Shown here piece after piece: positions 13,957 through 25,521 of a DNA stretch of 64,000 nucleotides; positions within the stretch are counted from its first letter, which is position 1, and every line of letters starts with the position of its first letter. The translations under genes were made by a program, and so were the position numbers. The stretch comes from Acidimicrobiia bacterium (GTDB lineage: Bacteria; Actinomycetota; Acidimicrobiia; Spongiisociales; ZC4RG35): the NCBI GenBank assembly GCA_965216495.1, contig OZ244163.1, positions 96,127-160,126 on the forward strand, written 5' to 3'. The notes under the pieces are model-generated. The model searched no databases, was not told the DNA's origin, and saw nothing but the letters and a program-made list of their open reading frames with translations.

Positions 13957-14034
13957 TGGCAGGGGTGGAGGGACTCGAACCCCCAACCTCCGGTTTTGGA
14001 GACCGGCGCTCTAGCCAATTAGAGCTACACCCCT
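13957..14034 (-). tRNA. tRNA-Trp (anticodon CCA)
   Basis: Reverse complement folds as a cloverleaf: acceptor AGGGGTG/CACCCCT, anticodon loop CTCCAAA, T-loop GGTTCGAGTCC, 3' CCA encoded. Canonical position upstream of secE. Confidence 0.85.
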
Positions 14035-14097
14035 AGGGGGTTCGCGGGTCGTCAAAGTATAAGACCGGTCGGCTCCCTGTGGAAAGTTGAGCGGGAT

Positions 14098-14200
14098 ATA
14101 GGGGACGCCCGAACGCGGAAGCGTTCGTGCCGTCCCCGGATTGTTGTAGTGGATTAGGGGACGCCCGAACCCGGAACAAGTTCTCGCTGTTCCTTCTAGA
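14098..14200. repeat. two direct copies of TAGGGGACGCCCGAAC(g/c)CGGAA, each forming a GC-rich hairpin
   Basis: Copy 1 is a nested perfect inverted repeat GGGGACG-CC-CGAACGC-GGAA-GCGTTCG-TGC-CGTCCCC. Copy 2 is GGAACA-N9-TGTTCC. Both lie between tRNA-Trp and the upstream minus-strand gene. Confidence 0.5.
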
Positions 14201-14417
14201 TCCTCCCTGTCTGATCGTGATCAGCGTGCAGGTGTCCGAGATCTCGTCACCATTCCATATTTAACTGAACCGTGGTGTTGCGTGAGCTGAGCCCAGTGAC
14301 GAGCAGTTAGCTCGTATCTGAAGGAGGAATTGGTCACCCTCAATCGGACAGTGACGACTGGAGCGAACGAACTCGGTGCGGCTCACCTAGACGGGTGCTG
14401 CAATCTTTGGATGTTCG

Positions 14418-14918
14418 TTATGGAAGGGGTGCTTCGAGTTCAAGATCGAGCATTAGGTCTACCCAGCCCACTAGGCGAGATTTCCACTCTTCGTATTCGA
14501 CAACGGGATTTCCGTCGTACATGAAGTCGCCGACGTCCTCGCGGACCTCATCAGAGAACATCATTGCACCGCGGGTCAAGAAATCGCCAGCGTCGCAATC
14601 TGGCGTCAGGCCGGTCTCTCTCATGTGCAGGTTCGCGAGCTGGCTAACAAGGGTTTCAACATCATATAGGCGGGAGCTCCAGGACTGACCCCGAACTGTC
14701 TCAGGGCTGCCGATGACAGTGAGTACCCTCTCATTCATCTCTGTCCCCCACTCCAAGGCAACTTCCTGACACGTCGTTCCGGTGAATTCAGGCCGGTCGC
14801 TGTCGCAGGCGCCGATCGACCGGGGTAGGCCGTCGCAAGAGTCGGGACGAAGCGCTAACAAGCCAACAACGACGGCACCCACCGCCAAAAAGCTGGCAAC
14901 GATCAGAATCCGTTTCAA
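14418..14918 (-). CDS. secreted/membrane-anchored hypothetical protein
   Basis: N-terminal signal/TM (MKRILIVASFLAVGAVVVGLLAL) and several Cys. No family recognised. Confidence 0.5.
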   Translation of the reverse strand: MKRILIVASFLAVGAVVVGLLALRPDSCDGLPRSIGACDSDRPEFTGTTCQEVALEWGTEMNERVLTVIGSPETVRGQSWSSRLYDVETLVSQLANLHMRETGLTPDCDAGDFLTRGAMMFSDEVREDVGDFMYDGNPVVEYEEWKSRLVGWVDLMLDLELEAPLP

Positions 14919-14990
14919 GCCTTCAACCTTTCGAACAATCCAACCGCCTTGGGTCGGAGGAGCTGCCTCCGACCCAGGACGAACGTAGTC

Positions 14991-15600
14991 TCAACAGTCG
15001 GTTGAGATATAGGTAGCTCCACTAGTCGCGATCGTATAGGGCGCGCTGTAGTCCGACGTAGCCGTATTGGTCTCAATCTTGACTGTGGCCTTGTATCCGG
15101 CGTTGTTCGTGACGTTGAATACGGCCGAGGGGATTAATCGGCTGACCAGAACACTGGCTCCAACGTCGTATCGAGACTCGTATTTGCCCCACGTCTCAAC
15201 GGTTTTGGTTGACGGCGCATTCCATCGAAGTCGGACCTGCATCTCGAATTGGAAGTTCCCATCCGCTTTGCAGTGAGTCCTCGAAGTCGTGCCAGCTGGC
15301 AGAACTATCCAGCCCGTATCATCGCTCCACCAGCAGAGAACGCAGTCTTTCTTGCTGCGCCATTTGTATTCCAGGACACACGATGACAATCCGACCGGAC
15401 AGTCGTTCAAGATCGAGCCCGAGTCGAAGGTGACGCGTGCTGTGGATCCGTTATCTGTCACATGACCAGCCATGTTGTTGTCTCCTCCCACGACCTGCCC
15501 ATCGGCGGCCTGCGCAGGTAGCGTGTTAGCGATGAATAGCGCAGCCAGCGCTATTCCAACGACCAGCATTCTGCGTCCATTCACAAGTGCAAGGCTCATC
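14991..15600 (-). CDS. secreted Cys/Trp-rich hypothetical protein
   Basis: Start taken at MSLALVNGRRMLVVGIALAALFIANTLPAQA (signal peptide); the mature part is Cys/Trp-rich. The ORF-track N-extension was judged unlikely. Confidence 0.5.
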
Positions 15601-15795
15601 TTGTCTTCTCCTTTAGATCGTGCCTTGATGCGTTGGTGAGCTTGCGGGAGGGCTACGCAGGCGTCTATCCCCAGTTGCGGGTAAATCTGTAGCCAGATTG
15701 AGTGATTTGCGTACCCAAAACCGGGCAAGTGTCTTCTTCCAACGCTGCTGATGGTATGGCTAGGGTGGTGTCGACTGAATTCTTAGGGGGTCGAC

Positions 15796-16251
15796 GTGGT
15801 GGACATCGTGGACATCGTGCGCGTCAGTCTGGTCGTAGCAAACACGAGCCTGTTCGGGTACCTGATACTCACTGGACTCAGAGAGCGGTCGGCTAACCGA
15901 GGTCCCGGAGTTCGGTTGATGCGCAGAGCGGCGTTGGCAGCCTACGGTGCCGTCTTTGTCGGGGGACTGCAGCGCATAATCCTCCAAGGTGTCCCATTGG
16001 GACTTGTAAACGACGACGCTCTAGACCCAATACTCGAGACCTATGCTTACGTTCAGGCGGCGGTGGTGCTGAGCCTGGGGGTCGTCTGCTGGCGCTCGTT
16101 AACAATGGCTACGCACCGATTGAGGGCTTCAGACGACCTGCTTGCAGCTTTTGGGGGTGCGCTTCCGGATGTCGACTGGTCCGGAGTGCATTTGACGCCA
16201 CGAGAGCGAGAGGTCGCGGACGTTTGGGAAACGACAGCGCTACCTGAATGA
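15796..16251 (+). CDS. hypothetical protein (possibly the frameshifted 5' part of a longer gene)
   Basis: 151-aa Val-rich ORF with an internal tandem 9-mer (gtggacatc x2). It ends 1 nt out of frame with a downstream HTH-coding frame. Confidence 0.3.
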   Translation: MVDIVDIVRVSLVVANTSLFGYLILTGLRERSANRGPGVRLMRRAALAAYGAVFVGGLQRIILQGVPLGLVNDDALDPILETYAYVQAAVVLSLGVVCWRSLTMATHRLRASDDLLAAFGGALPDVDWSGVHLTPREREVADVWETTALPE

Positions 16252-16405
16252 AATTCTCCCAATTCTCACGGATATCAAACTCGAAGCTATCGCCCAAGCA
16301 ACCGGCCTCTCCCTCGGCTACTGCTCATTCATCCGGCGTGGCATCAAGACACCACATCCGAGACACTGGCAAGCTCTAGCAGCACTCGTCCAACGAGTCG
16401 GCTAG
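16196..16405 (+). other. startless XRE-family helix-turn-helix coding frame (cryptic small regulator or frameshifted C-terminus of the upstream ORF)
   Basis: Frame +1 relative to 15796..16251 translates to ...KLEAIAQATGLSLGYCSFIRRGIKTPHPRHWQALAALVQRVG*. This matches the XRE pattern L-x3-A-x3-G-x-S-x4-S-x-I-(E/R)-R-G-x3-P-x7-LA. No in-frame ATG/GTG/TTG lies between the upstream stop (16193) and the TAG at 16403. Confidence 0.4.
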
Positions 16406-16407
16406 CG

Positions 16408-16423
16408 CATATTGCCGGTTATG
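16408..16423. repeat. palindromic motif copy G (CATATTGCCGGTTATG)
   Basis: Inverted-repeat motif CATA(A/T)-N6-TTATG, 3 bp after the XRE-frame stop. Confidence 0.5.
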
Positions 16424-16498
16424 GGTTGGTGGGGGTGGATGGACAGGCCCTCTCAAAGCTGTTTCGTGACTTGAGTTCAGGGTTGATCACCCATGCGG

Positions 16499-16945
16499 TT
16501 ACGGGTTGCGAGCCCATGGCCGTTCTTCCACGACGAACCAGAGGCCTGCTACGGAAAAACCCAGGGGAAAGAGGAGTAGGAGTGATCCAAGAATGATTGA
16601 CCCGATGCCTGCGGTAGTGACGTTGGTGGGGTCAGCCGGGTCGTAGCGGACGTCTAGTACATCACCTTCGGCATCGAACGCCGACGTGGCAATCCAGGTC
16701 TCCACTTGTTGTCCGTCTGAAGTCGTGAAGGCCACGGTTGCCTCGAAGCCGGTCTGGGAACTCCCGGAAGCATCCGAGAGGAGAGTGCCTGAAGTTGTCT
16801 CCCCGCTTGTAAGCAGGCGGATGTCGGTCCACGTTTCTGCGACGTTGTAGCCGAACCATGCGAGGACGAGGATCGTTAACGCGACTGCGCCGATCCAAGT
16901 CCACCATCTCTTTAGATCTAGTTTCCGTCCCAAGCCAGGCTGCAT
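16499..16945 (-). CDS. DUF3592-like membrane protein
   Basis: N-terminal TM, beta-rich middle (GTLLSD...VRYDPADP) and C-terminal TM. The start was taken at the internal MQPGLGRK. Confidence 0.55.
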   Translation of the reverse strand: MQPGLGRKLDLKRWWTWIGAVALTILVLAWFGYNVAETWTDIRLLTSGETTSGTLLSDASGSSQTGFEATVAFTTSDGQQVETWIATSAFDAEGDVLDVRYDPADPTNVTTAGIGSIILGSLLLLFPLGFSVAGLWFVVEERPWARNP

Positions 16946-17052
16946 TCTCGCATTACGGACCCAACCAACGCGGGGCTGCTGCTCAAACACAAGGAGCAAA
17001 TAGCGGCAGATATGAGCGGCTTTGCGCACGGATCAGGCTGGTTGGTGGCTGT

Positions 17053-17448
17053 TCACGCCAGACCTGCGAGACCCCAAATCAAGAGACCAAGCCCTAGTGC
17101 CACAAGCAAAGGAACGACTAGCAGCAACGGTGAGCTCATGAGTCCACGCCCGTAGTCGACGGATGTTCCCCACCACGCTGGGCCTTGGAAGTACGAGATA
17201 TCAATCGAGTCCCCAGCTTCATGGCTGCTGTAAAGGTGCTGCCAGACTTCTACCACATGCTCGGATCCATCAGGTAGTTCAACAGTCAACAAGAAGGACT
17301 CCCCTCCTTCTCTTCCACCTAGGTCATGACGCTTTGCTTTGACCTCAGCAGCCGCTCGGCGAAACAGAGCCAGCCGGTAAACCAAAGCAAGCACAGACGG
17401 AACCAAAACAATGATCCCTAACACAACGGCGGTTGTGGGCTGCACCAC
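17053..17448 (-). CDS. DUF3592-like membrane protein (tandem paralog)
   Basis: Same TM-beta-TM architecture (ESFLLTVELPDGSEHVVEV...), 131 aa. Confidence 0.55.
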   Translation of the reverse strand: MVQPTTAVVLGIIVLVPSVLALVYRLALFRRAAAEVKAKRHDLGGREGGESFLLTVELPDGSEHVVEVWQHLYSSHEAGDSIDISYFQGPAWWGTSVDYGRGLMSSPLLLVVPLLVALGLGLLIWGLAGLA

Positions 17449-17492
17449 AGCTCAACCTATCGTCCGATCACACTTGGAGTCGGATTGGCCTA

Positions 17493-17508
17493 CATAACGG
17501 CACATGTG
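17493..17508. repeat. palindromic motif copy A (CATAACGGCACATGTG)
   Basis: 45 bp upstream of the minus-strand DUF3592 gene start (17448). Confidence 0.5.
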
Positions 17509-17622
17509 CGCCTTCAGGCACAACGCCGAGTTCCATCAGCGGACGTTGTTCCTTCGGATCGGGGCATCGGAACCTAGCGCGCAGACGCAGCCGAGGTACT
17601 GGTGTCCATGCACCTAGCTGCA

Positions 17623-17638
17623 CATAACGGCACATATG
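17623..17638. repeat. palindromic motif copy B (CATAACGGCACATATG)
   Basis: 27 bp upstream of the ATG at 17666. Confidence 0.55.
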
Positions 17639-17665
17639 TCGTGGTTGGCTGGGTAGCTTCGACGC

Positions 17666-18148
17666 ATGCCAGACGAATTCTTCTTCCTTACATTTGGTGG
17701 TCTTGGTGTTTCCCTGGCTGGGTTCGCTGGACTGATTCATGCCCTGGACCGCAGCGATAGCGCAGACAACCCTGAGACCAAGTGGCGTATCCGCAACATT
17801 GTCATGGGTGGGTTCACCGTGGCTCTGGCCGGGCTGCTCACGTGGCCGGTGTACGGGTTCACTCAGGATGTGGATACGACTGTGCGGATCGTCTCGGCCT
17901 ACTTCGTCTTAGGACTAATCCGTCAGTTCGCTGTGGATGCGAGGCCGGGACCGGCCTGGCCCAACGACACCCGCCGCAAGGTCTTCCTAGGCATCGGAGT
18001 TGCGCTTGGGGTCGTGGCCGTAATCAACGTATTTGCTGCATCAGTAGCCTTACTGGAACTGCTGTTCTTCTTGGCAATCGGGGGCCCGATCGGCACCTTC
18101 ATCAGAGCGATCGGCGATCTCCACGACCCGGCGGAGGCGAGCGCATAA
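17666..18148 (+). CDS. small polytopic membrane protein (hypothetical)
   Basis: 160 aa with 4-5 predicted TM helices. The stop TAA is embedded in motif copy C. Confidence 0.55.
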   Translation: MPDEFFFLTFGGLGVSLAGFAGLIHALDRSDSADNPETKWRIRNIVMGGFTVALAGLLTWPVYGFTQDVDTTVRIVSAYFVLGLIRQFAVDARPGPAWPNDTRRKVFLGIGVALGVVAVINVFAASVALLELLFFLAIGGPIGTFIRAIGDLHDPAEASA

Positions 18149-18159
18149 CGGCACATATG
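18144..18159. repeat. palindromic motif copy C (CATAACGGCACATATG)
   Basis: Contains the stop codon of the 17666..18148 ORF; 22 bp upstream of the EamA gene. Confidence 0.55.
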
Positions 18160-18181
18160 AGCGTGGCGTAGGGTCCTTGCG

Positions 18182-19066
18182 ATGGATGGGAGGCTGGACC
18201 GCGCCGGTCTGAGGTTGTTTCTTGCCTATTCGGTGCTGGCTGGTGGGAACGCAGTGGGGGTCCGGTTTTCTAATCGCGAGTTGGACCCTTTTTGGGGTGC
18301 GACTTTCCGGTTCGGGACTGCTGCGGTCTTGATGCTTGTTTTGATGGCAGTGCTGGGTCATCGGATTCCGCGAGGTCGAGCTCTGGCCGGTGCAGCGTTG
18401 TATGGCCTGTTGGCTTTTGGGGGTGCGTTCGCTTTCGCGTTCTACGCCTTGGTCGAACTCGAAGCTGGTTTCGGCCAGATCCTGCTCTCGGTCGTGCCGC
18501 TGGTCACCCTTCTGCTTGCATCAGCTCAGAAACTCGAACGGCTGAAAGGGTCTGCTGTTGCGGGCGCACTCATCTCGCTTGCAGGAGTCGTCGTGATGTC
18601 AGGCCTGGGCTTTCAAGGTTCGCTTCCGCTCCCGTCGATCCTTGCCGGAATCGGTTCAGCCGTTTGCTTTGCTCAAGCGTCTCTTACGATCAAACGTTTC
18701 CCCGAATCTCATCCCATCGTCGTCAACGCAGTCGGCATGGCCGCCGGTGCCGTGTTCCTCGGCCTTGTGACCTTGGTTGCCGGCGATGACATCGCCCTGC
18801 CACAACAATCCGACACTTGGTGGGCGATCGTATACATGGTGCTAATCGGCTCGATCGCGGTCTTCAGTATTTACGTGGCACTCCTTGAACGCTGGGAAGC
18901 CTCAAGAGCCAACTACGGGTTCGTGATCATCCCCATCGTCACCGTCTTGGTGTCGGCCTGGCTACTCGACGAGCCGATCAGCATTGGACTGGCCTTTGGA
19001 GGAGCATTAGTACTAGCGGGCGTGTACCTCGGAGCGCTTCGACGACCAGCCACAACCCGCCCATAA
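18182..19066 (+). CDS. EamA/DMT-superfamily transporter
   Basis: Ten-TM architecture with two EamA-like repeats; 294 aa. Confidence 0.75.
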   Translation: MDGRLDRAGLRLFLAYSVLAGGNAVGVRFSNRELDPFWGATFRFGTAAVLMLVLMAVLGHRIPRGRALAGAALYGLLAFGGAFAFAFYALVELEAGFGQILLSVVPLVTLLLASAQKLERLKGSAVAGALISLAGVVVMSGLGFQGSLPLPSILAGIGSAVCFAQASLTIKRFPESHPIVVNAVGMAAGAVFLGLVTLVAGDDIALPQQSDTWWAIVYMVLIGSIAVFSIYVALLERWEASRANYGFVIIPIVTVLVSAWLLDEPISIGLAFGGALVLAGVYLGALRRPATTRP

Positions 19067-19077
19067 CGGCACTTATG
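19062..19077. repeat. palindromic motif copy D (CATAACGGCACTTATG; perfect CATAA/TTATG arms)
   Basis: Contains the EamA stop codon; upstream of the MFS gene. Confidence 0.55.
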
Positions 19078-19147
19078 CCGCCTGGCGGATGCGTGCATAC
19101 TGCCGGTTCTCGGGCGGCGTGCCGCATTCGCTCCAGGCTGCGGGACC

Positions 19148-20413
19148 GTGGTCCGATATGGTCGTGAGATGTCGCAGTCGGATGTTCCACGTCGGGCCGG
19201 CGCAGTCATCTCTGATCCCGATGGCCGTTTGCTTCCGCTCCTCCTTCTGACGACTGCCCTTGTCTTGGGCATGTCGACCTGGTTCTCAGCCACGGCAGTG
19301 GTGCCCCAACTCACGGATGCCTGGTCCCTGTCCAATACAGGTAGGGCTTGGCTCACAATTGCGGTGATTCTCGGCTTTGTTGTTGGGGCTGTCTTTTCGG
19401 CTGCCTTGAATATCGCTGATCGAGTGCGCCCTCAGTTGGTGATGCTGGTGGGTGGGGTAGGTGCCGGGATCGCGAATCTAGGGTTGATCTGGGCTGGAGG
19501 GGCAGAGATCGGCGTGGTGCTCCGCTTCGTAACCGGCTTCTTCATTGCCGGCATCTACCCGCCTTCGTTCAAGCTGATCTCGACGTGGTATCGGAAGGGC
19601 CGGGGTATGGCCTTGGGTGTCCTGGCTGCGGGGATCGTCTTCGGTAACTCGACTCCTCACTTGGCTAACGGTCTAGGTGGCATCGACTGGCAGAGCGTCA
19701 TCTACGCCACGACGGTCATGTCCATAGGTGGGGGTGTGGTGGCGTTCGTGGTTAGGGATGGGCCTTTCGAGTTCCCACGATCGGTATTCGATCCCCGCCA
19801 GGTCGGTCTGGTATTCGCCAACCGGGGTGTGAGGCTGGCTTCGATCGGCTACTTCGGTCATATGTGGGAGTTGTTCGCCATGGCAGCCTGGTTCTTGATC
19901 TTCTTCGGCGACCACCTCGTTGCCTTGGGTCAGCCGGCACTGCCGCACGCAGCATTCGTGACTTTCGTCGTCATCGCTATGGGAGCCGCAGGCTCGTGGG
20001 CTGGTGGGTTCATCGCCGACCGATGGGGACGGACCAACTTCACCGCGCTCATGCTCACGATCTCAGGACTGTGCTCACTCGGCATTGGCCTTCTGTTCGA
20101 TGGACCAACGTGGCCAATCGTAGTTGTCGGTCTCGTATGGGGGTTCACGGTCGTGGCCGACTCAGCACAGTTCTCCGCCATGGTCACCGAGGTGGGTGAC
20201 CAGTCCTATGTGGGGACGGCCCTGACCATGCAGATCGCCATAGGGTTCACCATCTCCGCAGCAACTATCTGGATCATCCCCCTCGTGGAAGAACTCACAA
20301 CATGGAGATGGGCATTCGCGGTCCTCGCCCTAGGGCCCCTTCTAGGCATATGGGCAATGCTTCGCCTAAAACGTCTTCCGGAGGCAGCCAAGATCGCTGG
20401 CGGGCTGGGATAA
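19148..20413 (+). CDS. MFS transporter
   Basis: 12-TM major-facilitator-like sequence, 421 aa. Confidence 0.75.
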   Translation: MVRYGREMSQSDVPRRAGAVISDPDGRLLPLLLLTTALVLGMSTWFSATAVVPQLTDAWSLSNTGRAWLTIAVILGFVVGAVFSAALNIADRVRPQLVMLVGGVGAGIANLGLIWAGGAEIGVVLRFVTGFFIAGIYPPSFKLISTWYRKGRGMALGVLAAGIVFGNSTPHLANGLGGIDWQSVIYATTVMSIGGGVVAFVVRDGPFEFPRSVFDPRQVGLVFANRGVRLASIGYFGHMWELFAMAAWFLIFFGDHLVALGQPALPHAAFVTFVVIAMGAAGSWAGGFIADRWGRTNFTALMLTISGLCSLGIGLLFDGPTWPIVVVGLVWGFTVVADSAQFSAMVTEVGDQSYVGTALTMQIAIGFTISAATIWIIPLVEELTTWRWAFAVLALGPLLGIWAMLRLKRLPEAAKIAGGLG

Positions 20414-20446
20414 GTCGCACCGCCTCCTTTCCAGGAAGAACCAACG

Positions 20447-20462
20447 CATATCGGCACTTATG
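20447..20462. repeat. palindromic motif copy E (CATATCGGCACTTATG)
   Basis: Lies in the 54-bp gap between the convergent MFS and membrane-domain ORFs. Confidence 0.5.
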
Positions 20463-20467
20463 TGAGG

Positions 20468-22231
20468 TCAGGCGGTGGTCGGGCTGAGAATCGCCAATGC
20501 GAGGATGGTCCAGCCAACAACGGTTCCCATCAAGGCGACTTCCAGTAGTCGTTCGTCGATCCCCGAAAGGACAGCTCCCATCGGTAGTGAGGCGACGAAG
20601 AGCCAGGCGAGCAGTCGAGGAGCGAAGCTGTATCTCGGAAGGAGTTGATTCCGGAGCACCTGGCCGCCTATCAGGAAGAGAGTGACGACTATCGACAGCA
20701 TGGTTGCTAGGGCAGCGGGACCAAACAGACCGTCGTCCCCGTCGATGATGTAAGCCACACCGGCGACAGCACCTCCCACCGCCGCAACCCACGCAAGAAT
20801 CGTGACCAGCCGAGGAAACCTGTCGATCCGGTCTCTGATACCGTAGACCAGCAGCAGAATCGAAACTCCGAAGAACACCAGAGCAAGTTCAAACCAATAG
20901 TCGGGCTGATCGCCAGTAGCCAGAATGGCGATGCTCTTGTAAGACCACATCACCGCCCCGACCACGGCGAGCAGACCGCTCCATCGCAGCACACCACCAA
21001 CCGTGCCCTGCCACCTCATCATCAGCTCCCTGCACACGCACATAACGGCACATATCGCTCGGGCTAAATGCGATCGGGACCAAGCAAAAAGCCGCTCGCC
21101 AGTTGAGATGACCTCAAAAGAATGAAGGGCATCTGCCGGGTAAGCCAGTGGCACCCAAGAGGCCCGATCCTCGTCCCAAATCGCCAGACCAGAGCAATGC
21201 TGTGCCAGAGGTTGCCTGCCATAGGTGTGAGCTGTTGGCGAACACTCGTAGAACCGCAGCGGAACATCGGGATATGGGTTCCACCGGTTGGATTCGGGGT
21301 CATATCGCGACGCACCCATCTGGTAGTCAACAGCGATCACATCGCCTCCCAGAGCCACGCCCGATGTAGCCAGCGACGTCAAGCCGCTCGACGGCATCAG
21401 TGTCCACTCATCGATGCTGACGTCATATGCGCCCTCTCCTGTGACCACCACCAGGTGCTCATCGGCCCATACCGCTGTAGCTCTGTCATGCAGGCTGGGC
21501 GGCTCGGCAATTGGGGTGGGGTCTCCATTAAGGGGGTCAACCAAGAGCCCCTTCTCTGCGTCAATCACCTCGGAGCCGGTCCAATCCGACAAAGGGTAGA
21601 ACCCTCCGTCGAGCGGCCAATCGTCAATCACTCGCCAAGTGTTCGTTGCCGGATCCCAAGCCGCGGCGTCAGGGGCTCGGGTCCAAATGATCAGCTCCTC
21701 GCCCGTCCAGACGGACCCGTATTTACTGCTCAGGCGCACCGGGCTGTCCGTCAGCTCGCGCCACCTTCCCGTTTCCGGGTTGTAGGCGGCACCTCCACCC
21801 ACCGGAGCGCCTCCACCAAGGCGCTCGCCACCCCAGTAGACCAACTCCTGTCCGGTCCAAGCCTTGACGCCCACCCACCGAGCCGACAGCGGGCCGGGGT
21901 CCAACTGAGTCCAGTCCTCAGAAACGAGGAACTCATCTGGAACGGGCCTTCGCTGTGCAACATCGTCGATCGGGAACGGCAGTGAACGCGTGACATCCGA
22001 CGGAAGAGGCGAGACGTCGATCAAGTACTGCAAATGGTCGATCCCGTCTGCCGACTCGATCGGCGCCGTAGCCGTGCTCTCCGGTGCCGTCGGCGCGCCC
22101 GGATCCTGACCGTCGGTCAGGGCAAAGAGAACCACAAGAATCAGAGCCAGCGCTGCCACGGCCGCTGCGACCCGAGGGCCTCTCATCGAAGACCTGTTAA
22201 CCGCGTGGGCCAGGCGTTCACCGACGTGCAA
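20468..22231 (-). CDS. secreted Kelch-repeat beta-propeller protein fused (or run together) with a C-terminal 6-TM membrane domain
   Basis: N-terminal signal (MRGPRVAAAVAALALILVVLFAL) and repeated ...W..GG...YDP.TN.W... Kelch-like blades. The C-terminal ~185 aa, from MMRWQGTV at ~21023, are polytopic membrane. Motif copy F lies in frame at the junction. These may be two genes: 21060..22231 and 20468..21023. Confidence 0.5.
   Translation of the reverse strand: MHVGERLAHAVNRSSMRGPRVAAAVAALALILVVLFALTDGQDPGAPTAPESTATAPIESADGIDHLQYLIDVSPLPSDVTRSLPFPIDDVAQRRPVPDEFLVSEDWTQLDPGPLSARWVGVKAWTGQELVYWGGERLGGGAPVGGGAAYNPETGRWRELTDSPVRLSSKYGSVWTGEELIIWTRAPDAAAWDPATNTWRVIDDWPLDGGFYPLSDWTGSEVIDAEKGLLVDPLNGDPTPIAEPPSLHDRATAVWADEHLVVVTGEGAYDVSIDEWTLMPSSGLTSLATSGVALGGDVIAVDYQMGASRYDPESNRWNPYPDVPLRFYECSPTAHTYGRQPLAQHCSGLAIWDEDRASWVPLAYPADALHSFEVISTGERLFAWSRSHLARAICAVMCVCRELMMRWQGTVGGVLRWSGLLAVVGAVMWSYKSIAILATGDQPDYWFELALVFFGVSILLLVYGIRDRIDRFPRLVTILAWVAAVGGAVAGVAYIIDGDDGLFGPAALATMLSIVVTLFLIGGQVLRNQLLPRYSFAPRLLAWLFVASLPMGAVLSGIDERLLEVALMGTVVGWTILALAILSPTTA
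21041..21056. repeat. palindromic motif copy F (CATAACGGCACATATC)
   Basis: 18 bp upstream (minus strand) of the ATGATG that begins the membrane domain. It is in frame inside the 587-aa ORF. Confidence 0.5.
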
Positions 22232-22481
22232 CTCCTCAAAGGACCTTTCCCTCCACGGTCTCCGTTCTTCCTAACTGCCCCAGGGTGAGGGGGCTGAAAA
22301 AGCAGTACGTCGATTAAGACGTTGAAAAGGCTTACAGGGTTCACAGCGATCCAAACGAAGGCGAGGCAAGACTTATGAATCTTGTTTGGTCGGGCCTGGA
22401 TCGGGGGACATAATGCAAGCCATGAACCAATTTGGGGGTCACTGATCATTTGGGGAATGAAGTCCGGCTCCTCGACTGGAC

Positions 22482-22850
22482 TTGAATATCCGGGGTCATA
22501 GCTTTGCCGTCTGCGCAGCCATGGTCGCGCTGCTGGCCGCGTGCAGCAGTACCTCGATCTGCTCTGGCGAGGTAGGCCCCGAAACGGTCCATGTCGACGC
22601 CTCAGCGTGGGTCGACGAGGAAACCACCATTGTCGTCTGCCTCATGGAGCAGGCGACAGGGGCGGAATACTGTGGACAGGAAGGGTCGCCCACGGTGTCG
22701 GTCGTAGCCTCCAATGACTATCAGGTTGAATGGAACTACTACGTCACTTTCCGACAAGGGAACACCCACGTGGTTCCGTCGGCTGCTGGCGGGACGCACT
22801 CGATGAAATGCGAAGCCACGACCACGAACATCGTGCTGACCCGGGGCTAG
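22482..22850 (+). CDS. putative lipoprotein (hypothetical)
   Basis: TTG start. Signal plus lipobox MNIRGHSFAVCAAMVALLAAC-SS. 122 aa. Confidence 0.45.
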   Translation: MNIRGHSFAVCAAMVALLAACSSTSICSGEVGPETVHVDASAWVDEETTIVVCLMEQATGAEYCGQEGSPTVSVVASNDYQVEWNYYVTFRQGNTHVVPSAAGGTHSMKCEATTTNIVLTRG

Positions 22851-22932
22851 ACCACGGCTGCCTAGCGAGAACCTTCGACGCAGCGGTCGCGACCGACCGC
22901 CTCGAAGACCTCGACCTACTGGTTCACACCGC

Positions 22933-23499
22933 TCAGTGGGGAGCGACTACCTCGGCAGGCTGATGGGTGCTCGCGGGCTCGGGAATGAGTTCCAACAGCT
23001 GAGAATTGAGCAGGTAGAACTGGTGTGTGGTCAGCGAACCTTGCCCGTGACGACGGTTGATGTCCTTGAGCATCCGCAACCACCGACGGAAAGCTAGGGA
23101 AGGATCAACGCCCTCGGCATTGAGGCCCTCCTCCACTTCTTTGACCTTGGACTTCAGCTCTTCGAACCGCTCTTCTTCGATAGCTGAGCGGTTGAGTGTT
23201 GAACCGGTTGCCGCCGCCACACCGTTGGATGCAGGAGAGGCGGCAGGTTGGGCGTCGGCGACACCGAGTTCGAGAGCGAAGCGGGACGCGTCATCCACTT
23301 TGAGAATCATCTCCTCACCGTCCACCTTGATGTAGAACTCGCCGTCCTCAGCGCGGGCGACCAATTCTTCGAGCGGCCACTCGGCAATGGTGCGTTCTCC
23401 CGACATGAGGCACAGCCCTTCATCGGAAATGTCGACGACGACGCCAACAGGAAGGCGGGTCTGGCCGGGGATGCGAAGCCTGGCATCAAATGAGGACAT
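22933..23499 (-). CDS. hypothetical cytoplasmic protein (weak PilZ-like RxxxR...DxSxxG N-terminus, coiled-coil C-terminus)
   Basis: Start taken at MSSFDARLRIPGQTRLPVGVVVDISDEGLCL. No confident family assignment. Confidence 0.45.
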   Translation of the reverse strand: MSSFDARLRIPGQTRLPVGVVVDISDEGLCLMSGERTIAEWPLEELVARAEDGEFYIKVDGEEMILKVDDASRFALELGVADAQPAASPASNGVAAATGSTLNRSAIEEERFEELKSKVKEVEEGLNAEGVDPSLAFRRWLRMLKDINRRHGQGSLTTHQFYLLNSQLLELIPEPASTHQPAEVVAPH

Positions 23500-23585
23500 G
23501 TCTCTCTCCTTCACGCCTCTCAGCCAGCATCTAGGTAATCGACAGGGAGACCCCTTGGGATACCGCCATCCAGAGGATCCTTTCA

Positions 23586-23870
23586 ATGCGGTATTGTTCG
23601 GCCGTGCACAAGATCGATATCACCTACTGCGTTCCTTGAAACTATCTCCCCCGCGCCGTGAGCGCGGCCAACGGAATCCTCGCCGACTATCAACACGTCG
23701 TTGAGTCTCTGACCTTCACCACCGGCTCCAAAGGAGTGTTCGACGTAGTGGTCGATGGCGAGCTCCTCTACTCCAAGCACGAGACAGGTCGTCACGCCGA
23801 CGAAGGCGAAGTGGCCCAGCTTTTCGCGGAGAAGTATGGGGAAGGCGTCACCAAGTACGGCGACGGCTAG
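23586..23870 (+). CDS. SelW-like (Rdx family) selenoprotein with in-frame TGA = Sec
   Basis: ATG at 23586 has a GAGGA RBS 9 nt upstream. It reads MRYCSAVHKIDITYCVP-U(TGA 23637-39)-NYLPRAVSAANGILADYQHVVESLTFTTGSKGVFDVVVDGELLYSKHETGRHADEGEV... The CxxU redox motif and the G..G.F(D/E)V.V.G.L..SK motif match the SelW/Rdx fold. The ORF track reported only the 70-aa part after the TGA. Confidence 0.6.
23651..23667 (+). promoter_or_regulatory. putative bacterial SECIS hairpin
   Basis: CCGCGC-CGUGA-GCGCGG is a perfect 6-bp stem with a 5-nt loop containing GU. It begins 12 nt 3' of the UGA, the usual bSECIS spacing. Confidence 0.4.
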
Positions 23871-24033
23871 CAGCCAGGGTCCTCCTTAAACACTCTTCAC
23901 AAACAAGGAGGGCCGATCGACTTCGAGCCGACCAAAAAGCCCTCTCAGCGACCACAGTACGCGCACCCCCATTACAGTGCGTGGCGGAGGGGCAGAAACA
24001 AAATCAAGGAGAGAGAACTTGAGGAAAGTATGG

Positions 24034-24849
24034 ATGACCGCCATTGCGGTCTTCACGATCATGGCGATGGCCATCCCAGTCGGAGCTATCACCAAGGGCG
24101 GAGCGCCCGACAATGGTGAGCACCCGTACGTGGGCCTTATGGTCGCCAAGGACGCCGATGGCAACCCGCTTTGGCGTTGTTCGGGATCGATGATCTCGCC
24201 GACGGTGTACGTAACCGCAGGTCACTGCGTTTCACAGCCGGCAGCGACGGCAACGATCTGGTTCGAGGAGGACGTGCAGTCGCTCGGCTTCGATATCGCA
24301 GATCCCAACATGTACCCGAACGGCGGACCGACCACGGTCACCGGAACGGCACATCCACATCCCAACTATGACGACAACGCCTTCTTCCTATACGACATGG
24401 GAGTGGTCGTCCTGGACGAGCCGGTCTATCTGTCGTCATATGCAACTCTCGCTAGCGAGGGTGCCTTGGACGATTTGGGCAATGGTCGCAACGACGCTGT
24501 TGTCGAAGCAGTCGGCTACGGCTTGCAGAATGCCAACAAGAACCACACCGTCGCTAACCGCGTTCGGATGAAGGCTGACCTCATGGTCGTCGACACCATC
24601 GGTGTTGCCGGTCTCGGGAGACTCGCCAAGTTCTTTGAGGGCAGCGGCTCCTTCATGGTCAGCGGCGACGCAGCCCACGGTGGAACCTGCTTCGGCGACT
24701 CGGGAGGACCGATGCTCATCGGTGACACCGATGTCCTCGTCGGGGTCAACTCCTTCGGACTCAACGGCAACTGCGCCGGAGTCGGAGGCGCCTACCGAAT
24801 CGACCAGGCAGACGACCTTGCGTTCATCAACTCGTTCCTGGGTTCCTAA
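24034..24849 (+). CDS. secreted trypsin-like serine protease (S1 family)
   Basis: Signal peptide, TAGHC (His) and GDSGGP (Ser) catalytic motifs, and AGGAGAGAGAA RBS before the ATG at 24034. Confidence 0.8.
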   Translation: MTAIAVFTIMAMAIPVGAITKGGAPDNGEHPYVGLMVAKDADGNPLWRCSGSMISPTVYVTAGHCVSQPAATATIWFEEDVQSLGFDIADPNMYPNGGPTTVTGTAHPHPNYDDNAFFLYDMGVVVLDEPVYLSSYATLASEGALDDLGNGRNDAVVEAVGYGLQNANKNHTVANRVRMKADLMVVDTIGVAGLGRLAKFFEGSGSFMVSGDAAHGGTCFGDSGGPMLIGDTDVLVGVNSFGLNGNCAGVGGAYRIDQADDLAFINSFLGS

Positions 24850-24865
24850 CCCAGCCTGAACTCGA

Positions 24866-24901
24866 CAGAAGGGGCGCCCTTTGGGCGCCTCTTCTTTTTT
24901 T
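24866..24901 (+). terminator. rho-independent terminator of the S1 protease gene
   Basis: GAAGGGGCGCCC-TTT-GGGCGCCTCTTC followed by TTTTTTT. Confidence 0.65.
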
Positions 24902-24953
24902 GATCCAAACCTGGCGTCGCTCCGAAGTCCCAATACACAGCGACAAAGGAGAG

Positions 24954-25469
24954 ATGCTGATGAGGAAACTGCTCGTGTCAATGGTGGCTGTCGCAATGAC
25001 CGCGACCATGGCCCTACCAGCCCTTGCAGGCAAGCCTGCTGCCGCCGAGGCGGCCAAACCCGGCAACCAGACGATCGTGGAGATCGCTTCGGGCAACTCG
25101 AACTTCGAGGTGTTGGTGACTGCGGTGGTACGCGCCGACTTGGTCGACCTGCTCAATGGGAAAGGCCAGTTCACCGTCTTTGCCCCGACTGATGCTGCAT
25201 TCGAGGCGACCTTCGGAGCCGACGAAGAAACCATCAAGGGACTGATCAACGCCGGCGCTCTCGACGGTGCATTGGGAGACATCCTTGGGTACCACGTCAC
25301 AGAGGGTCGACGGATCTCAACCTCGGTTCTGGCAGCGTCAAGCTACGAAATGCTGAACGGTGACACGCTCACCAAGGCCGAACTAGTGGCGGCTGGAGTG
25401 GTTCCTGCCGACATCTCGGCTAGCAACGGAATCATCCACGTGCTCACGGCCGGAGTACTTCTGCCCTAA
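24954..25469 (+). CDS. secreted fasciclin (FAS1) domain protein
   Basis: Signal peptide plus FAS1 signatures (TVFAPTDAAF, GYHVTEGR, NGIIHVL). AAGGAGAG RBS. Confidence 0.75.
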   Translation: MLMRKLLVSMVAVAMTATMALPALAGKPAAAEAAKPGNQTIVEIASGNSNFEVLVTAVVRADLVDLLNGKGQFTVFAPTDAAFEATFGADEETIKGLINAGALDGALGDILGYHVTEGRRISTSVLAASSYEMLNGDTLTKAELVAAGVVPADISASNGIIHVLTAGVLLP

Positions 25470-25521
25470 CGAACAACCACTCACTGTTCGGGTCCTGGTC
25501 GTCGACTAGGGCCCGAACTCT

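What the first reader, a model, noticed from the sequence alone, without database searches (positions are those of the whole stretch)
16196..16405. Startless XRE-family HTH reading frame ending 3 bp before a motif copy
In a frame offset +1 from ORF 15796..16251, 16196..16402 translates to ...RQRYLNEILPILTDIKLEAIAQATGLSLGYCSFIRRGIKTPHPRHWQALAALVQRVG*. This is a canonical XRE/Cro-C1 helix-turn-helix, yet the 68 codons contain no ATG/GTG/TTG. It is therefore either a non-canonically initiated small regulator, the frameshifted C-terminus of the upstream 151-aa ORF, or a fresh pseudogene. XRE dimers bind short inverted repeats, and the frame's TAG stop is 3 bp from motif copy G. That makes it the most parsimonious candidate regulator of the CATAA-N6-TTATG regulon; this link is inference.
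Basis: partly seen in the sequence, partly recalled or inferred. Interest (0 to 1): 0.65.

Follow-up and report, generated by a model that had tools for sequence, protein, structure and literature searches.

The report
Leftover tail of a Cas1-like gene
The start-less helix-turn-helix frame is the last ~62 codons of a Cas1-type integrase gene, joined by a DNA rearrangement to a truncated LuxR-type regulator gene, so it is a gene relic and not a hidden regulator.

Summary
The frame is real: 69 sense codons, no ATG/GTG/TTG, TGA before it and TAG after. It is not a small XRE regulator gene.

- **Origin.** A profile of 114 full-length "Cas1-solo" proteins (Cas1 domain, zinc ribbon, C-terminal HTH; ~500 aa) matches only window 16220-16393. 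That is profile positions 455-512 of 516, E 1.6e-22. No other piece of such a gene is in the window. Related Acidimicrobiia carry the intact gene in the same variable spot beside tRNA-Trp/secE.
- **Upstream ORF.** The 151-aa ORF is itself truncated. A 95%-identical metagenomic contig encodes the intact 194-aa membrane LuxR/GerE protein, and identity collapses right after 16215. So 16215|16216 joins two gene fragments in different frames.
- **Fold.** It is XRE-like (AlphaFold pLDDT 87), but Pfam HTH_3 is below threshold.
- **Motif.** The "motif copy" at 16408 is degenerate. Seven strong copies (16999-21056) form a one-gene-per-unit array of a 12-6-12 palindromic site. In 80 metagenomic loci these sites keep direct orientation (68:8), ignore gene direction (28:31) and mark homology breakpoints. 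They behave as recombination sites, not operators, and none co-occurs with Cas1-solo.

The proposed regulator link is unsupported.

The parts
16216..16405 (+). 3' relic of a Cas1-solo-type gene. It holds the last ~62 codons plus TAG and encodes only the C-terminal HTH domain.
   Evidence: The Cas1-solo HMM (516 positions) matches positions 455-512 at 16220..16393, i-E 1.6e-22, and nowhere else in the window. The best BLASTP hits are full-length Cas1-solo proteins: L087/P0158 at 67.9% over 56 aa and P0157 at 72% over 54 aa. The AlphaFold2 model is a 4-helix HTH with pLDDT 86.9.
16196..16215 (+). First 20 nt of the open frame. This is out-of-frame sequence of the luxR-like gene, not part of the HTH homology. 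It merely happens to be stop-free after TGA 16193-16195.
   Evidence: This stretch is still ~95% identical to L088, the intact luxR-like locus. The HMM match starts only at 16220.
15796..16215 (+). 5' 140 codons of a membrane-anchored LuxR/GerE-type regulator gene, cut after '...LTPREREV'. The called 151-aa ORF runs on to 16251 through the relic in the wrong frame.
   Evidence: P0273 is the same ORF at 100% identity in NCBI/ENA. Its cluster mate P0274 (194 aa) continues '...LTPREREVLGQLASG...' and hits Pfam GerE at E 1.5e-10. DNA identity to L088 is 94.8% over 15796-16215 and ~50% beyond.
16215..16216 (.). Rearrangement junction between the two gene fragments.
   Evidence: Alignment A2 shows identity collapsing between these two bases.
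16408..16423 (.). Degenerate motif copy (CATATTGCCGGTTATG) 2 nt after the relic's stop. It may be a decayed terminal site of the array.
   Evidence: Located. The PWM score is 5.7 (reverse) and 2.4 (forward), which ranks 10-14 among 127,942 positions.
16999..21056 (+). Array of seven strong CATAACGGCACWTATG sites, all in the same orientation. Their start positions are 16999, 17493, 17623, 18144, 19062, 20447 and 21041. All but one of the seven intervals (counting the one bounded on the left by the degenerate 16408 copy) hold one gene, on either strand: DUF3592, DUF7489, a 160-aa membrane protein, EamA, MFS and a ~185-aa membrane protein; the 114-nt interval 17509-17622 is empty.
   Evidence: Interval coverage is.
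13957..14184 (-). tRNA-Trp (13957-14034) and its upstream region (14034-14184). This is one edge of the variable island that holds everything above.
   Evidence: tRNA calls are. The tail of L088 matches 14184..14034 in reverse orientation at 87%.

Best explanation
The frame is a non-functional relic. It is the last ~62 codons of a Cas1-solo-type gene, which encodes a ~500-aa protein made of a Cas1 integrase domain, a zinc ribbon and a C-terminal XRE-like HTH.

A recent rearrangement in the hypervariable island next to tRNA-Trp/secE removed the first ~88% of that gene. It joined the remaining tail, out of frame, to the first 140 codons of a membrane-anchored LuxR/GerE regulator gene. That gene lost its own DNA-binding domain in the same event.

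The frame has no start codon because it was never the start of a gene. It looks open and 'canonical' because the truncation is recent. In the parent protein the HTH is presumably the DNA-recognition module of a Cas1-family integrase, by analogy with casposases. In this genome it most likely does nothing.

Shown: the homology, its extent, the junction, and the intact versions of both genes in relatives. Inferred: that the relic is not expressed, and what role the HTH has in the parent protein.
For: 1. The domain family has 2418 representatives. It sits at the C-terminus of 450-700-aa proteins whose N-terminus hits Pfam Cas_Cas1.
2. A related Acidimicrobiia MAG (L006/L082) has an intact 500-aa Cas1-solo 8.5 kb from secE, in the same relative orientation. 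Its C-terminus reads '...ATGLTPGYCSFIRRGIKIPHPRHW...'. L084 has one 5.4 kb from secE. L021 has a frameshifted relic ~100 bp from tRNA-Trp.
3. The HMM of 114 full-length proteins hits only positions 455-512 of 516 at 16220-16393, i-E 1.6e-22. Nothing else matches in six frames of the whole window.
4. The top BLASTP neighbours of the relic are full-length Cas1-solo proteins.
5. The upstream ORF is truncated. Its orthologue P0274 carries a GerE domain, and DNA identity of 95% stops at 16215.
6. There is no ATG/GTG/TTG in the frame and no promoter-like site in 15600-16700.
7. The island between anti-sigma and tRNA-Trp varies from 0.3 to ~10 kb among relatives. The window's island genes have no homologues in 80 related loci.
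Against: - All family-invariant residues are intact and there is no internal stop, so selection on the fragment cannot be excluded.
- Stand-alone small proteins with this domain exist. P0001 (112 aa) is apparently coupled to a methyltransferase gene, and P0003 is the last gene of an integrative element. The parent could therefore have been a small gene rather than a full Cas1-solo.
- Only 1.3 kb of the close relative (L088) is available. The exact history (deletion versus inversion plus deletion) is unresolved.
- I could not check reads, so an assembly chimera at 16215|16216 is not excluded.
Confidence: 0.8

Rival explanations
1. The relic descends from a stand-alone small HTH gene of the same family (70-120 aa) rather than from a full-length Cas1-solo gene. 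It would still be truncated at 16215|16216.
For: Most of the 150 best representatives are short. P0001 (112 aa, 69% identical) has its own start and overlaps a downstream N6_N4 methyltransferase gene. The truncation leaves nothing upstream of profile position 455 that could settle the question.
Against: The highest-scoring neighbours are 500-aa Cas1-solo proteins. Related Acidimicrobiia have the full-length gene in the same hot spot. Many short database entries may themselves be fragments or relics, as in L021.
Confidence: 0.12
2. The frame is a functional small HTH protein started at a non-canonical codon (for example CTG 16244 or ATT 16253). It would act as a regulator or accessory DNA-binding factor, possibly on the CATAW-N6-WTATG sites.
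For: The domain is intact and folds confidently. Near-cognate codons exist. A GGGA lies ~10 nt before CTG 16244 (read directly from the sequence). A motif-like sequence follows the stop.
Against: - Homology begins at a rearrangement junction.
- Initiation at CTG 16244 would remove most of helix 1.
- There is no promoter-like site.
- The family does not co-occur with the motif in 80 motif loci.
- Five intact Cas1-solo loci lack the motif within 80 nt after the stop; L082 and L083 were pattern-scanned in full.
- The adjacent copy is degenerate.
- The sites behave as recombination junctions, not operators.
Confidence: 0.05
3. The frame is the frameshifted C-terminus of the 151-aa ORF. The cause would be a sequencing indel, a real 1-nt mutation or programmed +1 frameshifting, and the product a membrane-anchored HTH protein.
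For: Both are on the + strand and overlap by 56 nt. The original gene also had a 'transmembrane plus HTH' architecture.
Against: The intact orthologue continues into an unrelated GerE domain. DNA identity ends at 16215, so the two parts have different origins. No upstream homology to the Cas1-solo family exists in the ORF's frame. I saw no recognised +1 slippery or stop-codon context in 16196-16251 (inspection only).
Confidence: 0.02
4. The junction is an assembly chimera. The cas1-solo tail and the array would belong to another place or another genome.
For: The window appears to come from a MAG-type 2.3-Mb contig. L088 shows a different arrangement around the luxR-like gene.
Against: G+C content is continuous across the junction at 0.56-0.57. 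The flanking synteny tuf ... secE is kept. Relatives also carry Cas1-solo genes or relics in this same hot spot.
Confidence: 0.04

Closest known systems
C-terminal HTH domain of casposases and Cas1-solo proteins (for example the Methanosarcina mazei family 2 casposase, PDB 6OPM)
   Same: Both are Cas1-fold integrases with an extra C-terminal 60-70-residue HTH. In the casposase, deleting the HTH abolishes integration (PMC6977970). The parent family here matches 6opm and 4n06 over its Cas1 part and is not next to CRISPR arrays.
   Different: Only the HTH tail survives in the window. The parent family is bacterial (Acidimicrobiia, Acidobacteria, Solirubrobacterales) and has a Cys4 zinc-ribbon linker. 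It sits in a conserved module with unannotated proteins of ~1040, ~125, ~95 and ~190 aa, and has no PolB. No sequence-level match to the casposase HTH was obtained.
XRE / Cro-C1 (lambda-repressor-like) HTH, Pfam HTH_3 (PF01381)
   Same: The predicted fold is the same. Top structural neighbours are DdrO, C.Esp1396I, SinR and a mycobacterial XRE regulator, with TM ~0.55 and rmsd 2.1-2.6 A over ~53 residues. There is a weak HTH_3 hit over residues 27-63.
   Different: The hit is below Pfam's cut-off (18.2 vs 23 bits). Foldseek E-values are >=0.23. The segment is a domain of a larger enzyme, not a free-standing repressor, and the signature 'YCSxIRRGxKxPHPRHW' is specific to this family.
LuxR/GerE-family regulators with N-terminal membrane domain (applies to the upstream ORF)
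   Same: The orthologue P0274 has three predicted transmembrane helices followed by a GerE domain at residues 132-185.
   Different: In the window the GerE domain is cut after its first 8-9 residues.
Core sites of tyrosine recombinases (dif/Xer, pdif modules) and integron cassette arrays (applies to the neighbouring motif)
   Same: The site is a 12-6-12 imperfect palindrome with inner arms CATAA/TTATG, as in dif. Frankia alni dif is CACGCCGATAA TGCACA TTATGTCAAGT (PMC3025954). The sites are direct repeats that bound single-gene units, and homology breaks fall at the site.
   Different: - The outer arms are symmetric (AGCCGC/GCGGCT) and unlike the XerD arm.
- The sites are in direct orientation, not alternating as in pdif modules.
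- There is no attC-type structure, no gene-orientation bias and no integrase gene beside the array in the window.

Membership tests
XRE/Cro-C1 HTH (Pfam HTH_3) | Score above the Pfam gathering threshold for HTH_3 | tested here: not met
   18.2 bits against a cut-off of 23, E 0.0026. A full-length family member, P0043, gives the same sub-threshold result.
XRE/Cro-C1 HTH (Pfam HTH_3) | Lambda-repressor-like helical fold with an HTH | tested here: inconclusive
   The AlphaFold2 model has pLDDT 86.9 and helices at 5-24, 29-36, 40-47 and 55-68. The Foldseek top 50 are almost all XRE-type HTHs at TM ~0.5-0.58, but no hit has E<=0.001.
XRE/Cro-C1 HTH (Pfam HTH_3) | Independent gene with its own start codon | tested here: not met
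   No ATG/GTG/TTG in 69 codons. Homology starts at a rearrangement junction.
XRE/Cro-C1 HTH (Pfam HTH_3) | Binds an inverted-repeat operator near regulated genes | not testable with these tools
   This needs EMSA or ChIP. Indirectly, there is no co-occurrence with the motif.
Cas1-solo / casposase-like integrase with C-terminal HTH | C-terminal HTH domain homologous to that of the family | tested here: met
   HMM positions 455-512 of 516 match with i-E 1.6e-22. Identity to full-length members is 58-72%.
Cas1-solo / casposase-like integrase with C-terminal HTH | Cas1 catalytic domain (PF01867) in the same gene | tested here: not met
   It is absent from all six frames of the window. It is present in intact homologues. 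The window therefore holds a fragment, not a member gene.
Cas1-solo / casposase-like integrase with C-terminal HTH | No adjacent CRISPR array or other cas genes ('solo') | tested here: met
   For homologue loci L082, L084, L085 and L087, there are no short-spaced direct repeats and no other cas Pfam hits in the gene lists.
Casposon (self-synthesising transposon) | PolB gene and terminal inverted repeats around the Cas1 gene | tested here: not met
   The conserved neighbours (~1040, ~125, ~95 and ~190 aa) have no Pfam or PADLOC hit, and none to DNA polymerase B. Terminal inverted repeats were not searched for systematically.
LuxR/GerE regulator (upstream ORF) | Complete GerE HTH domain | tested here: not met
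   The window ORF ends '...LTPREREVADVWETTALPE*' and has no GerE hit. The orthologue P0274 hits GerE at E 1.5e-10.
Tyrosine-recombinase core site (dif-like), for the motif | Two inverted arms around a 6-8 bp asymmetric spacer | tested here: met
   The consensus AGCCGCA-CATAA-CGGCAC-WTATG-nGCGGCT was derived from 151 copies.
Tyrosine-recombinase core site (dif-like), for the motif | Sequence exchange occurs at the site | tested here: met
   Pairs L127/L148, L152/L161 and L094/L137 are 76-100% identical on one side of the site and unrelated on the other.
Tyrosine-recombinase core site (dif-like), for the motif | A cognate recombinase binds and cleaves the site | not testable with these tools
   A regex for tyrosine-recombinase box II found nothing in the window. 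Integrase genes or fragments lie in some motif loci: L091, L094, L102 and L125.
Integron | intI gene plus attC sites (R''-L''...L'-R' structure) with co-oriented cassettes | tested here: not met
   No integrase was found in the window. The site is a 30-bp palindrome rather than an attC. ORF orientation relative to the site is 28:31.

The most novel reading that the evidence does not exclude
The cas1-solo gene whose tail survives here may once have been functionally tied to the adjacent array of CATAACGGCACWTATG sites. Either a Cas1-family integrase or its HTH would recognise these sites. The relic plus the array would then be the remains of a Cas1-driven gene-cassette system, and not two unrelated tenants of the same hot spot.
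Probability: 0.03. Interest if true: 0.85.

Novelty: new member of a known kind. Interest (0 to 1): 0.28.

Why it matters
For the finding itself the result is deflationary. A tempting 'orphan regulator with no start codon' turns out to be a gene relic at a rearrangement junction. It should not be annotated as a gene or used to explain the motif.

It matters indirectly in two ways.
1. It shows that the tRNA-Trp/secE neighbourhood of these Acidimicrobiia is a turnover hot spot where Cas1-solo genes come and go. It also exposes a large bacterial Cas1-solo family (more than 3000 database hits), apparently undescribed in the literature I searched, with a zinc ribbon, an XRE-like HTH and a conserved set of unannotated partner genes.
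2. Checking the proposed regulator link showed that the neighbouring motif behaves as a recombination site. It builds one-gene-per-unit arrays that are widespread in metagenomes. That is the more interesting object and deserves its own evaluation.

Tried and rejected
- **Upstream Cas1 remnants.** I looked in every frame with tblastn of 152 family members against 14000-17000 and a six-frame HMM scan of the whole window. Only the known frame hits.
- **Other genes of the Cas1-solo module.** tblastn of the ~1040, ~125, ~95 and ~190 aa proteins against the window found nothing.
- **Frameshift fusion with ORF151.** An apparent 'REVADVWE' ~ 'AVAEWN' resemblance in the ORF frame was considered. It was rejected because the HMM sees nothing there and L088 shows that stretch is LuxR-gene sequence.
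- **Simple insertion into the luxR-like gene.** The missing GerE-coding part is nowhere else in the window by blastn or tblastn. Instead, L088's tail matches the tRNA-Trp leader in reverse. The difference is therefore an inversion plus loss, which 1.3 kb of the relative cannot resolve.
- **Motif next to intact Cas1-solo genes.** None in L082/L083 or within 80 nt after the stop in L082-L087.
- **Cas1-solo or its HTH in 80 motif-bearing loci.** None.
- **Motif as a promoter or operator.** Disfavoured because site orientation follows neighbouring sites (68:8) and not genes (28:31). Also, the copy at 20447 (and the degenerate one at 16408) has no gene start downstream on either strand.
- **Motif as attC or integron.** No integrase and no attC architecture.
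- **Routine scans.** Rfam on 13-23 kb found only tRNA-Trp. The promoter/terminator scan was uninformative.
- **Source contig.** The look-up of encoding contigs for ORF151 returned 'not on record', so the source contig could not be fetched.
- **Literature.** Searches found no description of such arrays or of this Cas1-solo family. That is absence in the held library only.

Full report
**Observation.** It has 69 sense codons, is preceded by TGA (16193-16195) and ends in TAG (16403-16405). It contains no ATG, GTG or TTG. Only near-cognate codons are present: CTG 16244, ATT 16253 and 16262, and several ATC. It lies +1 relative to ORF 15796..16251. Pfam gives only a sub-threshold HTH_3 hit (18.2 bits, cut-off 23) and NCBIfam gives nothing.

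**What the domain is.**
- The word-indexed protein search found four short homologues sharing 'ATGLS..YCS.IRRG.KTPHPRHW'.
- An exhaustive HMMER search with their alignment found 2418 cluster representatives.
- In these proteins the domain is always C-terminal. It occurs in many short proteins and in 450-700-aa proteins whose N-terminal 300 residues are a Pfam Cas_Cas1 domain.
- These long proteins carry a Cys-x2-Cys...Cys-x2-Cys linker, a 'DPAHGG' stretch and then the HTH.
- A search with one of them returned 3174 hits at E<=1e-5. Nearly all are ~500 aa, and those that carry a source name (about a quarter of the rows shown) are called 'CRISPR-associated endonuclease/protein Cas1'.
- Their Cas1 part matches solved Cas1 (4n06) and the M. 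mazei casposase (6opm).
- Four such loci have no CRISPR-like repeats and no other cas genes. They are therefore 'Cas1-solo' genes.
- An AlphaFold2 model of the window frame, using 86 homologues as the alignment, is confident (pLDDT 86.9) and has four helices. Its structural neighbours are XRE-type HTH domains such as DdrO, C-proteins and SinR, at TM ~0.55 but with non-significant E-values. The gene assignment is not.

**Only the tail is present.** An HMM built from 114 full-length Cas1-solo proteins (516 positions) matches the window once. Positions 455-512 align to 16220..16393, i-E 1.6e-22. No other segment matches in any of the six frames of the 64-kb window. tblastn with 152 family members against 14000-17000 gives the same answer. 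The relic's best BLASTP neighbours are full-length Cas1-solo proteins: L087/P0158 at 67.9% over 56 aa and P0157 at 72% over 54 aa.

**Genomic setting.**
- SecE-based retrieval of 80 related loci identifies the organism as an Acidimicrobiia bacterium. Its own genome is not in that set, and the best SecE identity is 82-83%.
- These genomes share the order tuf - maoC - sigma - anti-sigma - [gap] - tRNA-Trp - secE - nusG. The gap varies from ~0.3 kb to ~10 kb.
- In the window the gap spans about 14.1-25.5 kb. Its genes have no homologues in the 80 loci (apart from a weak hit of the Kelch part of 20468..22231 in L021), except for the HTH.
- One relative (L006/L082) has an intact 500-aa Cas1-solo 8.5 kb from secE in the same relative orientation.
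- Another (L084, a 2.6-Mb contig) has one 5.4 kb from secE.
- L021 has a 5'-truncated, frameshifted remnant of the same HTH about 100 bp from tRNA-Trp.
- Cas1-solo genes and their wrecks are therefore recurrent tenants of this hot spot.

**The upstream ORF and the junction.**
- The 151-aa ORF exists as a called protein in NCBI/ENA on a 2.3-Mb contig (P0273).
- Its 90% cluster holds a 194-aa member from a 1.3-kb metagenomic contig (P0274/L088).
- P0274 is collinear up to '...GVHLTPREREV'. It then continues 'LGQLASGCIRDAQLAEKLHISPETARSHVKAITRKTGL...', which is a GerE/LuxR HTH (Pfam E 1.5e-10).
- At the DNA level, window 15280-16215 is 95.2% identical to L088. Identity falls to ~50% immediately after 16215.
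- So 16215|16216 is a junction. To its left are the first 140 codons of a membrane-anchored LuxR-type regulator. To its right are the last ~62 codons of a Cas1-solo gene, in a different frame.
- The missing GerE-coding part is nowhere in the window. The tail of L088 instead matches the tRNA-Trp leader (14184..14034) in reverse orientation. The two genomes therefore differ by at least an inversion and a loss. The 1.3 kb available cannot resolve the order of events.
- The relative differs by only ~5% in sequence and the relic is undamaged, so the event is recent.

**The proposed link to the motif.**
- The copy next to the stop (16408, CATATTGCCGGTTATG) shares only the outer CATA..TATG with the real motif. 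On a 30-nt matrix it scores 5.7/2.4 bits, whereas seven copies score 22-34 bits. Those seven start at 16999, 17493, 17623, 18144, 19062, 20447 and 21041, and all are in the same orientation.
- These seven, with 16408 as a possible decayed end, delimit units. All but one hold one gene, on either strand: DUF3592, DUF7489, a 160-aa membrane protein, EamA, MFS and a ~185-aa membrane protein. One unit (17509-17622, 114 nt) is empty. In two cases the gene's TAA stop lies inside the site.
The 80 loci retrieved (340 kb) hold 156 copies.
- Neighbouring copies are co-oriented in 68 of 76 pairs. The single longest ORF covers a median 78% of each interval. ORF direction relative to the site is 28:31.
- The extended consensus is AGCCGCA-CATAA-CGGCAC-WTATG-nGCGGCT. 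This is a 12-6-12 palindrome around an asymmetric spacer, the architecture of a tyrosine-recombinase core site. Its inner arms resemble dif; Frankia dif is CACGCCGATAA TGCACA TTATGTCAAGT (PMC3025954).
- Three pairs of loci are 76-100% identical on one side of a site and unrelated on the other.
- An IS110-family element sits 17-21 nt from the site in at least two loci (L129, L160; 74 nt in L092).
- These properties fit recombination sites bounding mobile single-gene units. They do not fit operators of a regulon.
- None of the 80 motif loci encodes the Cas1-solo/HTH family. Intact Cas1-solo loci have no such motif: none anywhere in L082/L083, and none within 80 nt after the stop in L082-L087.
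- The adjacency in the window is therefore best read as two tenants of the same hot spot.

**Mechanism and comparison.**
- In family 2 casposases an extra C-terminal HTH of 60-70 residues is required for integration. It is thought to recognise sequence next to the target (PMC6977970).
- By analogy (inference), the HTH of the bacterial Cas1-solo family is the DNA-recognition module of a Cas1-type integrase.
- That family is not a casposon. Its conserved neighbours (~1040, ~125, ~95 and ~190 aa) have no Pfam or PADLOC match and none is a PolB.
- In the window the domain is cut off from its enzyme. It has no start codon and no promoter-like site. Most likely it does nothing.

**Verdict.** The object is ordinary in kind, a recent gene relic at a rearrangement junction, although its parent family and its neighbour, the site array, are not ordinary. 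Remaining uncertainties:
- whether the parent was a full Cas1-solo or a stand-alone small homologue;
- the exact rearrangement path;
- whether the junction survives a check against raw reads.

Noticed in passing
window 16999-21056; loci L089-L168: An array of a 16-nt core (30-nt 12-6-12 palindrome AGCCGCACATAACGGCACWTATGnGCGGCT) in direct orientation, usually with one gene per interval on either strand. Homology breakpoints fall exactly at the site. It looks like a cassette array built on a dif-like recombination site. I found no description of it in the held literature.
   Followed up: partly
L129:1413-2810, L160:2710-4089, L125:12454-13837, also L091, L092, L096, L148: A ~1.4-kb IS110-family element (Pfam DEDD_Tnp_IS110 + Transposase_20) is inserted 17-21 nt from a motif site in L129 and L160 (74 nt in L092); homologous copies also occur in L091, L096, L125 and L148, there far from or without a nearby site. 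Its end carries 'GCGCACATAATGAATCTCTTATGTCAAGG', whose right arm equals the actinobacterial dif XerD arm TTATGTCAAG.
   Followed up: partly
L082:5472-11503, L085:3914-10033, L087:3314-9391, L083: A conserved five-gene module surrounds the bacterial Cas1-solo gene: [~1040 aa][107-130 aa][95 aa] on one strand, then [~190 aa][Cas1 + Zn ribbon + HTH, 500 aa] on the other. None of the four partners has a Pfam or PADLOC hit. Neighbours are defence-island genes (SIR2, nSTAND1, Eco57I, DpnI).
   Followed up: partly
window 14035-25520: The interval between tRNA-Trp/secE and the anti-sigma/sigma/maoC/tuf block is a hypervariable hot spot. It is 0.3 to ~10 kb in 80 related Acidimicrobiia loci and 11.5 kb here, and its genes have no homologues in those loci.
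   Followed up: yes
L021:9638-9765: An independent remnant of the same HTH domain, 5'-truncated and frameshifted, lies about 100 bp from tRNA-Trp in another Acidimicrobiia MAG.
   Followed up: partly
window 20468-22231 (- strand): A 587-aa ORF reads straight through the site at 21041-21056. It fuses a Kelch-repeat part (conserved in L021) to a C-terminal membrane part that looks like the last unit's gene (it starts 'MMRWQG'). This may be two genes, or a fusion created at the array boundary.
   Followed up: no
L020:190-205: A single strong motif copy (CATAACGGCACTTATG) lies ~190 bp upstream of tRNA-Trp in a related MAG, near the end of its contig. This suggests that arrays seed at this same hot spot in other genomes.
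   Followed up: no
window 18146-18148 and 19064-19066: The TAA stop codons of the 160-aa gene and the EamA gene lie inside the CATAA arm of the next site. In metagenomic units, ORFs often end in the site's TAA/TTA or begin at its CAT/ATG.
   Followed up: partly
L001:3245-3583: The closest short homologue, P0001 (112 aa), overlaps the start of an N6_N4 DNA methyltransferase gene by 8 nt and sits beside a HEPN_AbiU2 gene. This is a controller-protein-like position, which suggests some stand-alone members of the family are real regulators.
   Followed up: no
L125:2938-3285: One unit of a metagenomic array contains only the C-terminal third of a tyrosine integrase (Pfam Phage_integrase positions 88-169 of 172). 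Gene fragments therefore also occur inside such arrays.
   Followed up: no
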